64,000 nt of DNA, taken from assembly GCA_965228645.1 (NCBI GenBank), contig OZ245827.1:2617694-2681693 (forward strand), given 5' to 3'. The position numbers were made by a program. This stretch comes from Phycisphaerales bacterium. GTDB lineage: Bacteria > Planctomycetota > Phycisphaerae > Phycisphaerales > UBA1924. Positions 24,001 through 30,000 of the stretch are shown here, piece by piece. Position 1 is the first letter of the stretch. Every line of letters begins with the position of its first letter.

Positions 24001-27000
24001 GATCTCAGCCAGGAACACGCCGCACATGATCAAGACGAGCAGCTCCTGGCGGATCACCACCGCCACGTAGCCCAGCAGCGCCCCGAGCGAGAGCGAGCCC
24101 GTGTCGCCCATAAAGACCTGCGCGGGCGAGCAGTTCCACCACAGGAACCCGAGGCACGCGCCGATCATCGCCCCCACCAGAACCGTCAGCTCACCCGAGC
24201 CCGCGATGTAGGGCAGCAGCAGACGCTGCGCCCAGACCTCCTGCCCCGCGATCAGCGTCATCACCACCAGCCCGATCGAGACGATCACCACCAGACCCGA
24301 CGCCAGCCCGTCCATCCCGTCGGTGATGTTCACCGCGTTGGAAAGCCCGGCGATCATCATCACCGTCACGAACACATACAGAGGCTTGGTCAGATAGATC
24401 AGCCCCCGGTTCACCTCGTACGTCGCGCCCTCGTAGGTGCTCTGTAGCGGCAGATTCAAGACATGCGTCAGGCTGTGATCGCCCTCGCCCCGGTTGTACG
24501 CGAACACGCCGATCAGCACGCCGATGCCAAGCTGGAAGACCAGCTTCTCCCACGCGTGCAGGCCCTGCCTCCCGTCGCCGCGACGGGCCGCCGTCAGCTT
24601 GAGCCAGTCGTCCACGCTCCCCACCGCCGCCATCCAGACCAGCAGGATCAGCGCCATGTAGATGTACGCGACACGCACGTCAGCGAGCAGAATCACGCTG
24701 GCAAAGATCGCCCCCACGATGAGCACGCCGCCCATGGTGGGCACGTTTGCCTTGCCCTCAGCGTGCTTGCGCAGCGCGACCGCGTCGGTGATCCCCGTGT
24801 CCCCGATCTTCATCGCCCGGAGCCTCGCGATGGTCCTTGGCCCCAGCACCAGCACGATCAGAAAGGACAGCGCCGCCGAGGCGAGCACGCGGAATTCCAG
24901 CTCGTCGAGCAGGCGCACCAGCGAATAGAGCGTCAGCCCGCCGAAGAGATCGACGCTGTCGAGGCGCGAGCGGAAGATGTCGAGGAGCCAATAGAGCAAG
25001 GGTGAGGCATTCTCCGGGGGTTTAGGTCGCGACTGGCCCTTCCATGGCCTGCACGACGCGTTCGAGACCGACCGACCGCGAGCCCTTGATCAGGACCGCG
25101 TCGCCCGGACGGAACCTCTCTGCGATGGATCGGCCGTCGCCCGTCTTGGGCTCCAGCACCACGCCCTGATCCCCAAGTTCCGCCGCGATCGAATCTTGCG
25201 CAAAACGGGCCAGATCCCCCACCAACACCACGAAATCGGGCCCCGACCCCGCCCGGATCGTCTCGGCGACCGCCCGACCGATCTCTTCATGGAACCCCGG
25301 TGCCGCCGAGCCCAGTTCCAGCATCTCGCCCAAAACCAGGACCCGCCTGGTCGCCCCGTTCATCAGGCCGCCAAAGGCACGCACCGCCGCCAGGACCGAG
25401 TCCGGGTTGGCGTTGTACGCGTCGTTGATGACGTCGATCCCCGCGATCGTGCGCCGATCCAGGCGCATCTCCGCCCCGCGCGCCCGGCGCAGCGCCGCAG
25501 CGATCTGCGCCTCGCTCAGCCCGAGGCGTCGCGCCACCGCGATCGAGGCCGCCGCGTTCATTGCGTTGTGCGCCCCGAGCAGCGCCAGCTCGTACCGCTG
25601 CCCGCCGTTGGTCGAAAACCGCACACCTTTGCCGTCCGCCTCGACGCCCATCACGCGCAGGTCCGCGTCCGCGCCGAGACCAAACCGCACGATCTGGGCG
25701 CTCCCAGGCAGGAACTCCTCCAGGATCGAGGCCTCCGCCGGCACAACCCCAAGGCCGCCCGGCGCCAGCCCCTGCACGAGCGCCGCCTTCTCGCGCGCGA
25801 TGGCACGCTCCGAGCCCATCTTCTCCAGGTGCGCCCGCCCGACACTCGTGATCACCGCGACATCGGGGCTGGCGATCTGCGCCAGCTGCGCGATCTCGCC
25901 CGGGCTGCTCATGCCCGCCTCGCAGACCACGTACTGATCCGTGGGCTTGACCGCCAGCAGCGTCAGCGGCAACCCGATGTCGTTGTTGTAGCTCTTGACC
26001 GAGGCCGACCCGCGGAGCTGCGTCGCGAGCACCTGGTCGATCAGTCGCACAGTCGTCGTCTTGCCGTTGGACCCGGTGACCGCGATCACGCGCGTCGAGG
26101 TGAGCGACTTCCGGTACGCCCTTGCGAGCTGCCCAAGCGCCGTGCGCGTCGACCCGACCTCGATCAGCGTCATGCCCTCGGGGAGCTCTGCGGGCAGAGC
26201 GCCGGCGCGTTCGACGATCGCAAGCGTGCTGCCGGCGCGCCGCGCTTCGTGCAGAAACGCGTGCCCGTCGACGTGCTCGCCCTTGAAGGCCGCGAAGATC
26301 TGCCCGGGGCGAAGGGATCGCGTGTCGATCGAGACCCCGCCCGCGAGGCTCACCGTCGCGGAGCGCGCGACGAACGTCCCACCCACCGCCGCACGGATCG
26401 ATTCGGGTGAAAGAAAGCTCATCGCACGCTGGCCCGCCCACGCAGGCACGCCCGCGCCAGCGACACATCATCGAACTCGCGCACAACCTTGTGCCCGTGC
26501 TCGTCGCAGAGCTCCTGGAATCGCTCGTGCCCCTTGCCCGCGATGATCACCACATCCCCCGGCTGGGCGTCCGCAACCGCACGCACGATCGCCTCGGCTC
26601 GGTCGGGCAGCTTGAGCACATCGGACCGACGCGCCGGCTCGATACCCGAGAAGATCTCCTCGACGATCGCCTCTGGCGCTTCTGTCCGAGGGTTGTCGCT
26701 CGTCAGCACGACCCGGTCAGCAAGCTCGCCTGCGATCCGCCCCATCACGGGACGCTTGGTTTTGTCCTTGTTCCCGCCGCAACCAAAGACGATCCAGAGC
26801 GCCCCCTCGTGGCGCGATTCGTCCATCGCCCGGCGCATCTCCACAAGCGTGCGCTCGAGCGCATCGGGCGTGTGCGCAAAGTCGATGAACACGCTGACGT
26901 CGCCCGGGCCCTCGACGCGCTCGAGACGACCCCTTGGCAGATTGGGATGAGCAAGCCCGCCCGCGATGGCCTCGCTCTCGACACCCAGCTCATGCGCCAC

Positions 27001-30000
27001 CGCGACAGCCAGGAGCAGGTTCATCGCGTTGTGCTCGCCCATCAGGGGCAGCCCTGCCTCGATCTTGCCCGCAGGCCCCTGGATCAGCACGCGGATGCCG
27101 TCGATCCGGCGCCGGGTCACGCGCACCGTCCAGTCGCCCCTGTCCAGCGAGCACCGAACGACTCTGGCGCCGCAGCCAGCGAGCATCTCCTCGCAAGCCG
27201 GGTCGTCGGCGTTGACGATCGCAACGCCCCCCTCGGGGAGCATCTCAAACAACCGACGCTTGGCGCTCACGTACGCGTCTCGGTCCGCGTGGTAGTCCAT
27301 GTGGTCCGTGCCGAGCGTCGTAAAGACCGCGATATCGAACGCCAGCCCCGCGACGCGCCCCTGGTCGAGCGCATGGCTCGAGGCCTCGATCACCGCAGAC
27401 CTGCACCCCGCGTCGACCATCAGCGCAAAGGTTCGGCTCAGCTCGATCGCCGGGGGCGTGGTCATCTCGGCCTGGGCGATCTCGCGCCCGTCGTCGATCT
27501 CGACGGTCCCGATCAGACCTGTGCGCACACCCGCGTGGTTCATGATGCCGTGCACGAGATGCGCCACCGTCGTTTTCCCGTTGGTGCCCGTGACCCCGAC
27601 CAGGCTGAGCTTCTTCGTCGGGTTGCCGTGGAACCGCTCGGCCAGCTGCGCCGCAGCGAGCGCGACATCGGAGGCAACAAGGGCGACCGCATGGCGCGGG
27701 TCGACCTGCCTGGCGCCCTCTTCGTCGGTCAGGACCGCGACCGCGCCGTCGCGCACCGCCTGCTCGATGTACGCCCTGCCGTCGGCGCGCGTGCCGGGGC
27801 GGGCAACAAAGAGCGATCCGGGGAGCACCGTTCGGCTGTCGTCCGTCAGATCGCTGATGCGCACGCCAAGATCCGAACCGGACACCGGCGCGATGTCCAG
27901 AGTGTCGATGAGCCTGCCGAGTTCCATGGAACGCACCCCGCGCGGCAGGGCTTCCGTTCCCCGCTCTGCACGCACACGATCATACACGACAAAGCCGCTC
28001 GCGAAGATCGCTCCCCCATCAAGGCAGGATCAGCATCGCGTCCCCGAAGCTGAAAAACCGGTACCGCTCCCGGATCGCCTCGGCGTAGATCTCGCGCACC
28101 CGCCCCGCCCCGCCCGGGAACAGCGCCGACACCATCGCGATCAGCGTCGAACGGGGCAGGTGGAAGTTCGTCATCAGCCCGTCGGTCACCCGCCACGCGT
28201 ACCCGGGGCTGATCAGAAGATCCGTCTCCAGCTCGCCCGCGTCCTGCCCTCGTCCCGCGAAGGACTCGATCGTTCGACAGCTCGTCGAGCCCACCGGGAT
28301 CACCCGCCCGCCCGATGAACGAGCCCGGCGCAAACGCTCCATCACCCCGTCCTCCACCCGGCAGCGCTCGCTGTGCATCGGGTGCGTCTCCAGCACGTCA
28401 ACCTCCACCGGTTGGAACGTGCCGCGACCGACGTGCAGCGTCACGTCTGCCCGTCCTACGCCCTTGTCTGCCAGATTCTGGAGCAGCTCGGGCGTGAAGT
28501 GCAGGCCAGCCGTCGGGGCAGCAACGCTCCCGGATTCCTGCGCATAAACGGTTTGGTAGACGCGCTCGTCCTCGTCGCGGTTCTCCGCCTCGCCCGCGTG
28601 ACGCCTCGCTGACAGGATGTAGGGTGGGAGCGGCGGCAAGCCCGCCCGCAGCAGCGCCCCCTCCCCACCGGTCACTCTGACGAGCCACACCCCATCGTCC
28701 GTTTCGCGCCGGACCAGCTCCAGCTCCACAGGCTCGGTCTCGCCCGCGCGCAGGTCCAGCCCGATCCGAACGCCCGGGCGATGCCGGCGCATCTTGATGA
28801 GCACGCGCCAATGCCCCGGCTCGGGCGCGTGCTCGAGGTAGAGCCCCGAAACCCGACCGCCCGTGTCGAGATTGACGCCCGCAAACCGCGCGGGGACGAC
28901 CTTGGTTGTGTTGAAGACGAGCGCATCGCCCTTACGCAGATACGCGGGCAGATCCGAGACCCGTCGGTGCTCCAGGACAGACTCATCGGATCGACTGACC
29001 ACCAGCAGCCGGGACGAGTCGCGCGGGCTCACCGGCTCCTTGGCGATCAGTTCCTCGGGCAGCTCGAAATCCAGCTCGTCGGTCCGCACGCTCGCTCCCT
29101 GATGGGTGTTGGCACCATCCAACGCCACCTGTTGCTACGGGGCAACACCGCCGGCTGTCCGGGCGCCCACTTCATGGGCACCGGGCCCCACAGGCCCCCA
29201 CCGATCACCATTTCTCGACATTCCCGGACGCCACGCGTCGGCATCGACCTCGCATCTCTCAGGTTGTGCGCATCGGAGCCAGCCATCACGACCGCTCGAT
29301 CGAGCCCTGTCACCCCTACGTCAGGCAGGCTTCCTGCACCGATCGCCCCATCCCCTTTGCGGACGCTCTCCATCGATCCAACCGCGAGCACGACACCTTC
29401 GAAATGAGCCCGGACTGCCAGCTCGCGAGCCAAGGCGATCGGGCGCGCCCCGAATGCGACGAGGAAAGGGTTCGCTCAATCACGAAGCCCGAGATGCCTC
29501 TGACTGAGACCCTGCGACGGGTGGAGTTTGTCTATGAGATCCAGAGTTCGCTACCCGCGGGGCGTCTGATCGACATCCTGCTCTAGGGGTATCTGGTTCA
29601 GTAGATCCGCAGGATCGTGTACTGCGGGTAGAACGACTCAAGGATCTTCCGCCAGTCATCGCCCCTCGAGGCCATGCCCTGCATGCAGTACTGACACATA
29701 CCCACGCCGTGCCCGTGACCGTGCCCTTCGATGACCGTGACCGTGCGCCCGACCTGGACCGTGAAGTTGTTGCTGTTGACCCGCGCAACCGCGGGCAGGT
29801 CCTTGACCGAGGGCGCCGCGAAATTGGCCGCGACGCGGAACTCCTCCGCGGTCAACGCGACCGACTTGCCCGCGGCGTCTGTCACCCTGACGGTCATCGA
29901 ACGCCCCGTCTGCGTGCGATCAATAACGTCAACCTTGGCCAGCGTGCCCATCGAGCCCAGCTCGTGGCTCCGCGCCCGTCCCCAGGCCTGCAGGCGCTTG

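What a model noticed while it worked through the whole genome (the two positions that open the first line are those of the whole stretch)
26419..27927. MurE drifts (R389K, loss of Tyr470) where the DAP pathway is lost: a Gram-negative planctomycete wall without meso-DAP
The genome keeps a full Mur pathway but no DapA, DapB or DapF, and its MurE keeps DNPR yet has Lys at the DAP-carboxylate arginine (E. coli R389, numbering recalled) and lacks the nearby Tyr. Reading: the peptide stem carries a residue other than meso-DAP (L-lysine, ornithine or lanthionine), and MurE specificity has shifted in several DAP-less lineages of the family. New: a non-DAP peptidoglycan in Planctomycetota and R389K as a sequence marker for it.
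Evidence so far: DapF in 0 of 10 genus genomes against 40 of 40 other order genomes; DapA and DapB_C in 0 of 5 tested. Alignment to E. coli MurE. Lys in 10 of 10 genus genomes. One row per genus or genome: Lys in 8 of 24 DapF-less against 1 of 40 readable DapF-bearing (Fisher p about 0.001, kin not independent; calls 48, 52, 174); the one exception, G164, lacks DapA and DapB. Tyr kept in 2 of 24 against 29 of 41. Searches 45, 46 (listings; passages of PMC3681970) showed no such case.
(Added by a program. Inside this text positions count along the whole contig: contig position 2,617,694 is position 1 of the stretch shown here. "Call 12" and the like, gene names such as g00115 and contig names such as C1 are that model's own, and its searches are not shown. 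The text may have been shortened before it was handed on; [...] marks where a part breaks off. The agent that wrote the report below was given it as the finding of a first reader that could run no searches.)

Follow-up and report, generated by a model that had tools for sequence, protein, structure and literature searches.

The report
Planctomycete family walls without diaminopimelate synthesis
This planctomycete, like about three quarters of its family, keeps the full cell-wall pathway but lacks every known route to diaminopimelate, the usual Gram-negative cross-linker, so its wall likely uses a substitute (most likely lanthionine), while the arginine-to-lysine change in its MurE enzyme is only a loose correlate of that loss and not a marker.

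Summary
The gene is an ordinary MurE in a murE-murF-mraY operon. R389K, intact DNPR and Tyr470 to Phe are real. The genome has the whole Mur set but no DapA, DapB, DapF, Ddh or LysA, and dapF is cleanly deleted at its syntenic site. The loss is family-wide: DapB is in 35 of 148 good family genomes against 227 of 237 elsewhere in the class. DapF is a poor proxy, since 65 of 112 DapF bearers lack DapA/B. R389K is not a marker. It binds the proximal carboxylate shared by all substrates. Only 26 of 108 DAP-less family MurEs have it, and 25 of 50 outside genomes with it keep DapB. Known lanthionine, ornithine and lysine users keep Arg. On a tree its link to DAP loss is modest (0 of 16 changes on DAP-making branches, p about 0.02). 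The distal pocket is unchanged in 108 of 109 DAP-less MurEs, which favours a diamino-diacid. Lanthionine is my best guess (0.38), then Lys/Orn (0.25) and scavenged DAP (0.25). Cultured Ignavibacterium album shows the same configuration, so the question is testable. No wall chemistry exists.

The parts
26419..27927 (-). murE, UDP-MurNAc-dipeptide:diamino acid ligase, 502 aa
26878..26880 (-). Phe350 = E. coli Tyr357 (DFAH); the pocket column with the strongest tie to DAP loss
26767..26769 (-). Lys387 = E. coli Arg389 (GCGGNKD), proximal-carboxylate contact
26686..26697 (-). intact DNPR motif, distal amino/carboxylate pocket
26518..26520 (-). Phe470 = E. coli Tyr470 (GKGHERF)
25022..26422 (-). 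murF, start overlapping the murE stop
23818..24999 (-). mraY
28019..29128 (-). queA, upstream neighbour, not part of the wall pathway

Best explanation
The gene is a canonical MurE in a genome that lacks every known route to meso-diaminopimelate, and it likely adds a DAP look-alike with two carboxyl groups, most likely lanthionine, as the third residue of the wall peptide. Shown: the full Mur pathway, the gene losses, an unchanged distal pocket (D413, N414, R416, G464, E468) and changes on the proximal side (Y357F, R389K, Y470F). Inferred: a CBS or CysK-type PLP enzyme would condense two cysteines to lanthionine. Relatives that kept DapF would epimerise it to the meso form. Lineages that lost DapF, like this one, would use the LL form or make meso from D-cysteine. 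R389K would be a tolerated, recurring relaxation that keeps a positive charge on the shared alpha-carboxylate, not the determinant of specificity.
For: DNPR is in 108 of 109 DAP-less family MurEs, and G464 and E468 in 109 of 109. These sites are near-invariant on the tree. The lanthionine user Fusobacterium vincentii has this same pocket, while the lysine and ornithine users examined have altered it (DNPA, ADHR, DDPR). In S. aureus MurE, DNPA to DNPR cuts kcat/Km for Lys from 8.8 to 0.003 (PMC3829189 passage). The DNPR enzyme of V. spinosum adds no Lys or Orn (PMC3681970 passage). All 27 DapFs read from genomes without DapA/B keep both catalytic Cys and N11, N64, N190, E208 and R209; 25 of 27 have Gly44, the type reported to epimerise lanthionine as fast as DAP (PMC12039745 passages). 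CysK/CBS-family enzymes are in 146 of 148 good family genomes, and two are in the own genome. cysK lies one gene from murA in 5 DapF-only genomes. I. album lacks lysC, asd and dapABD, has cysteine synthase and grows axenically on glucose and yeast extract (PMC3362086 passages). An I. album-labelled genome has K389, DNPR and DapF but no DapB.
Against: There is no wall chemistry. The own genome has no DapF, and V. spinosum MurE takes LL-DAP at under 1% of meso. Its two candidates are only 33-35% identical to the F. vincentii CysK-type enzyme I take to be the lanthionine synthase, and its GMS stretch is not seen in them. The murA-adjacent CysK is an ordinary CysK: the Fusobacterium entry 5xem (identity recalled) ranks 49th of 61. 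CysK/CBS and Gly44 DapF are just as common in DAP makers, so they do not discriminate. Genus g84 (G083; G178, one contig, 96%) has no CysK/CBS and no close CGL/MetB, yet carries F357, K389 and DNPR. A cystathionine gamma-lyase next to CBS (53) would tend to destroy thioethers. F. nucleatum's DapF-like enzyme proved to be a histidine racemase (PMC11602996, 36), and PVC DapF can serve as glutamate racemase (PMC5885031, 112), so DapF retention has other explanations.
Confidence: 0.38

Rival explanations
1. Thermotoga-like relaxed MurE: lysine (from the LysW route or diet) or ornithine is used, possibly also a D-isomer attached through its side-chain amine.
For: T. maritima MurE shares DFAH, GGN and HER with this protein and keeps R416. 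It adds L- and D-Lys in vivo and takes DAP only if available (PMC9434261 passage). The own genome has LysW, LysX and a LysW-lysine hydrolase, plus an arginine operon. Glu replaces Tyr470 in 40 of 65 MurEs lacking DapA/B/F, making the site more acidic, as in lysine users. Fits genus g84.
Against: N414 is unchanged in 108 of 109, whereas T. maritima has Asp there. The DNPR experiments argue against it. No Alr-family lysine racemase was found, and the Asp/Glu-racemase-like protein lacks both catalytic Cys in this genome.
Confidence: 0.25
2. The wall still contains meso-DAP, scavenged from other bacteria's peptidoglycan, and the MurE changes are near-neutral drift.
For: DAP fits the invariant pocket best. 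Scavenging is common in the family: 34 of 148 good genomes have neither DapA/B nor LysX, and the own genome lacks Hom, ThrB and ThrC. It has AmpG-like, MpaA-like and oligopeptide-binding proteins. Explains g84 and the intact DapF pockets.
Against: The AmpG-like and MpaA-like proteins score far below their cut-offs (115 of 350 and 68 of 157 bits). E. coli AmpD, NagZ, LdcA, AnmK, MurQ, Mpl and TcyJ/L queries found no orthologue. I. album has the same configuration and grows axenically on yeast extract, and yeast makes no DAP (established knowledge).
Confidence: 0.25
3. DAP is made by an unrecognised route, or the Mur products do not form a conventional cross-linked wall.
For: Aspartate kinase and Asd are kept with no known consumer in the own genome. 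No class A PBP, AmiA or MltG hit was found.
Against: That operon was not found in G109 (same genus) or in g84, and it is also present in DAP makers. FtsI/FtsW, PBP2/RodA, MurJ and an LD-transpeptidase are present, and MurE was found in 145 of 148 good genomes.
Confidence: 0.12

Closest known systems
E. coli / M. tuberculosis meso-DAP-adding MurE (1E8C, 2WTZ)
   Same: Fold (TM 0.86-0.89), ATP motif, DNPR, G464, E468, murE-murF-mraY order.
   Different: Y357F, D388N, R389K, Y470F; the host genome cannot make DAP.
Fusobacterium lanthionine peptidoglycan (lanthionine synthase FN1220, canonical MurE)
   Same: Gram-negative, no DAP pathway, DNPR-type MurE, CysK-family enzyme.
   Different: Fusobacterium MurE keeps Y357, R389 and Y470. 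No close orthologue of its synthase here (33-35% identity).
Thermotoga maritima L/D-lysine MurE (4BUB)
   Same: DFAH, GGN and HER; Arg389 replaced (Ser there).
   Different: T. maritima has DDPR and keeps DapA/B/F (control rows). Here DNPR is intact and no lysine racemase was found.
Deinococcus/Thermus LysW lysine route with ornithine wall (chemistry recalled); S. aureus L-Lys MurE
   Same: DAP-independent third residue; LysW route as in Deinococcus and Thermus (controls).
   Different: Their MurEs keep Arg389 and remodel the distal pocket (ADHR, DNPA), the opposite pattern. The Deinococcus copy examined is plasmid-borne.
Ignavibacterium album / Ignavibacteria
   Same: dap genes missing (PMC3362086), K389 with DNPR; DapB in 0 of 8 Ignavibacteria-labelled genomes.
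   Different: Other phylum; keeps Tyr357 and Tyr470; DapF-like gene in 2 of 3 tested. I found no report of its wall chemistry (search 73).

Membership tests
MurE ligase (TIGR01085) | Score over the curated cut-off; three-domain Mur ligase fold; GTNGKTT | tested here: met
   462 against 257 bits; model pLDDT 93.9, TM 0.86-0.89
meso-DAP-type MurE | D-[DN]-P-R, G464, E468 | tested here: met
meso-DAP-type MurE | Arg389 at the L-centre carboxylate | tested here: not met
   Lys387, a conservative change
meso-DAP-type MurE | Host makes meso-DAP (DapA/DapB plus DapF or Ddh) | tested here: not met
meso-DAP-type MurE | Adds meso-DAP in vitro | not testable with these tools
   needs an enzyme assay
L-Lys-type MurE (S. 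aureus, PRK14022) | Arg416 replaced (DNPA); model score | tested here: not met
   DNPR intact; 272 against 536 bits
Thermotoga-type L/D-Lys MurE | DDPR with loss of Arg389 | tested here: inconclusive
   shares F357, N388 and HER but has DNPR and Lys
Lanthionine-type wall (Fusobacterium) | No DAP pathway and a DNPR-type MurE | tested here: met
Lanthionine-type wall (Fusobacterium) | FN1220-like lanthionine synthase | tested here: inconclusive
   CBS and a divergent CysK are present but are not close orthologues
Lanthionine-type wall (Fusobacterium) | Lanthionine in muropeptides | not testable with these tools
   needs LC-MS

The most novel reading that the evidence does not exclude
Most of a large uncultured Phycisphaerales family, and independently the Ignavibacteria, have replaced meso-DAP in a Gram-negative wall with another residue (lanthionine the leading candidate). 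They keep a DAP-type MurE pocket and repeatedly relax its proximal side (Y357F, R389K, Y470E). This would be the first non-DAP peptidoglycan in Planctomycetota and would mean that DNPR does not predict a DAP wall.
Probability: 0.6. Interest if true: 0.72.

Novelty: new variant of a known kind. Interest (0 to 1): 0.52.

Why it matters
All four planctomycetes assayed in PMC4432640 (passages) contain DAP, and DAP detection is the standard proof of a planctomycete wall. A family of at least 138 genera, three quarters of which cannot make DAP, would be missed by that assay and by DAP-based biomarkers or sensors. It would add to the short list of Gram-negative walls without DAP. The same gene and motif configuration occurs in a cultured species (I. 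album), so the question can be settled by one muropeptide analysis. The negative result also matters: R389K and DapF should not be used as markers of wall type.

Tried and rejected
R389K as a marker: rejected. Tyr470 loss as a marker: rejected (rank 66 of 348 on the tree, 77; absent in Nonomuraea). DapF as a proxy for the DAP pathway: rejected. Incomplete assembly as the cause: rejected (one contig; dapF's syntenic neighbours abut 16 nt apart, 115; class control). Independent-pair tests of K389, F357 and Y470 against DAP loss gave only 6 pairs on well-supported branches, and none of the results visible in the cut output was significant. The MetB-like/aspartate kinase/Asd operon as the source of a cystathionine-type residue: set aside, since it occurs in DAP makers too and was not found in G109 or g84. 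The Asp/Glu-racemase-like gene as a D-Lys or D-Cys source: set aside, since it is family-wide (130 of 148) and its second Cys varies. The murA-adjacent cysK as a special lanthionine synthase: it looks like an ordinary CysK. The MurL search found nothing, but its control was silent too, so it is uninformative. Two OmpA-like proteins keep the Asp/Arg pair recalled as DAP-binding; I judged this uninformative. LysA, DapL and the AmpG/MpaA-like genes were not profiled across the family.
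Full report
The gene. Window 26419-27927 (-) encodes a 502-aa MurE followed by murF and mraY, with queA upstream. An AlphaFold model (pLDDT 93.9) matches solved MurEs at TM 0.86-0.89. Aligned to E. coli MurE fetched, the literature's R389 (full-length R390) is Lys, DNPR, G464 and E468 are intact, Y470 is Phe and Y357 is Phe. Lys389 and Phe357 are in 10 of 10 genus genomes, and Tyr470 in 0 of 9 readable. 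The closest named MurE among the motif loci is labelled Phycisphaera sp. (80% identical), and the next ten carry Phycisphaerales, Phycisphaerae or Planctomycetota labels. That is my basis for the taxonomic placement.

The genome. G000 (3.14 Mb, one contig, 93% complete) has MurA-G, MraY, MurJ, Ddl, FtsI/FtsW, PBP2/RodA and one LD-transpeptidase. It has no DapA, DapB, DapF or Ddh by family models whose controls rang, and no LysA by an E. coli query. dapF is missing exactly where a relative carries it, and the flanking genes abut 16 nt apart. Lysine can come from the LysW route. Alr and MurI were also not found; loss of alr is described for Phycisphaerae (PMC12283558 passage).

The family. In 201 family genomes, DapA (over cut-off) is in 49, DapB in 48, DapF in 112 and LysX in 100. 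Fifty have DapA or DapB, 65 have DapF alone and 86 have none. Among the 148 genomes at least 90% complete the split is 35, 48 and 65. Outside the family, DapB_C is in 227 of 237 class genomes at least 90% complete. These tallies include the unpublished genomes G069, G184 and G496, each changing a count by one; none is in the MurE alignment.

The residues against the gene states. I read MurE from 148 relatives plus G000. These were 120 of the 149 whose places were listed (chosen from the top of the list, with low-completeness and unpublished genomes left out), plus 28 found among 30 further, mostly lower-scoring genomes. Lys389 is in 0 of 40 DAP makers, 4 of 44 DapF-only genomes and 22 of 64 with none. 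Phe357 is in 0, 11 and 35. Tyr470 is kept in 34 of 40, 24 of 44 and 5 of 65, replaced mostly by Glu. On a FastTree tree of MurE domains 1-2 plus MurF (146 rows, 3 fragments dropped, 47 of 143 inner branches open), Lys389 needs 16 changes and Phe357 needs 26. None falls on DAP-making branches, which carry 21% of all MurE changes: p about 0.02 (rank 15 of 348 columns) and 0.002 (rank 2), uncorrected. Tyr470 ranks 66th. Seven of 72 MurE columns and 4 of 64 MurF columns with 12-30 changes show the same zero. The independent-pair results visible in the cut output were not significant. The drift is real but modest, and Y357F is the better correlate.

R389K is not a marker. R389 contacts the L-centre carboxylate, and S. 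aureus uses the same Arg for L-Lys (PMC9434261 passage). Fusobacterium vincentii (lanthionine), a plasmid-borne Deinococcus copy (ornithine, recalled) and S. aureus (lysine) all keep it. A motif scan of species-level genomes estimated about 520 stretches with Lys at this site, mostly Acidobacteriota, Ignavibacteria, Acidimicrobiia and Phycisphaerales. Of 50 hand-picked from the 120 returned, leaving out those labelled Phycisphaerales or Phycisphaerae, 25 have DapB (completeness not given). The 8 labelled Ignavibacteria all lack it, and 25 of the other 40 have it, after setting aside two Bacteroidetes-labelled genomes with the Ignavibacteria-type motif that also lack it.

What is constrained. 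The distal pocket is unchanged in 108 of 109 DAP-less MurEs (G001 is the exception). The lysine and ornithine users examined remodel it. DNPR in S. aureus MurE cuts lysine efficiency about 3000-fold (PMC3829189 passage), and V. spinosum MurE adds no Lys or Orn (PMC3681970 passage). The 27 DapFs read from DAP-less genomes keep the diamino-diacid pocket, and 25 have Gly44, the lanthionine-tolerant type (PMC12039745 passages). I infer that the substrate still has two carboxyl groups. Lanthionine is the one such residue with a natural precedent in a DAP-less Gram-negative (PMC11602996 passages), and CysK/CBS enzymes are in 146 of 148 good genomes. Against it: no close lanthionine-synthase orthologue, no DapF in G000, and genus g84 without CysK/CBS. 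Thermotoga-like use of lysine or ornithine and scavenging of DAP remain open; the AmpG-like and MpaA-like genes are below cut-off.

A cultured parallel. I. album lacks lysC, asd and dapABD and grows axenically on glucose and yeast extract (PMC3362086 passages). An I. album-labelled genome has K389, DNPR and DapF but no DapB. This makes a DAP-free wall plausible for this configuration and gives a direct test.

Literature. All planctomycetes assayed in PMC4432640 had DAP (passages). Listings of searches and passages of PMC12673574 and PMC5147048 showed no non-DAP planctomycete wall. Searches returned nothing. I read passages only (one section of PMC3829189 in full) and no supplements. The library lacks most subscription journals, so species descriptions with wall chemistry could have been missed.

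Verdict. The valuable part is the family-wide loss of DAP synthesis with an intact wall pathway: a non-DAP wall at about 0.63, lanthionine at 0.38. The R389K marker claim fails. New variant of a known kind; interest 0.52.

Noticed in passing
G000 C1:1811723-1814769 (L181): MetB-like, short aspartate kinase and Asd in one operon, with no homoserine dehydrogenase found in the genome; relative G138 has an AK-HSDH-Asd triple fusion at this place. The fate of aspartate semialdehyde here is unexplained.
   Followed up: partly
G000 C1:1955254-1956093 (L182): Asp/Glu-racemase-like protein next to an HscB-like gene, found family-wide (130 of 148), with PDN at the first catalytic site and a variable second Cys. 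No Alr or MurI was found, so the source of D-Ala and D-Glu is unknown; three class IV aminotransferases are candidates.
   Followed up: partly
L153 (G001 C32): The only family MurE with a remodelled distal motif (NDAH in place of DNPR), recalling the Deinococcus pattern; a candidate true Lys/Orn ligase.
   Followed up: no
G083 and G178 (genus g84): 96% complete genomes in which DapA/B/F, LysX and CysK/CBS were not found, yet with murE-murF; the third residue or its precursor would have to be imported.
   Followed up: partly
L386, L387, L389, L391, L392: cysK one gene from murA in five DapF-only genomes of the family.
   Followed up: yes
G000 C1:3008678-3009469 and C1:1885162-1886409: MpaA-like protein with a lipoprotein-like signal (next to lpxC/lpxD-like genes, named by eye) and an AmpG/RhtX-family transporter, both below curated cut-offs.
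   Followed up: partly
G050, G158 (genus g51): Both the DAP pathway and LysX are present, the only such cases among the 201 family genomes.
   Followed up: no
L255, L257, L307, L327, L335, L247, L290: Some acidobacterial and clostridial MurEs combine K389 with DNPK in place of DNPR.
   Followed up: no
G000 whole genome: No class A PBP, AmiA, MltG, DacA, FtsZ, FtsA or FtsQ hit with E. coli queries; wall synthesis appears to rest on the two SEDS/class B PBP pairs.
   Followed up: no
window 32921-33535 (+) and 31095-32279 (+): LexA-like repressor and DprA-like protein near the mur operon, named by eye from the translations.
   Followed up: no
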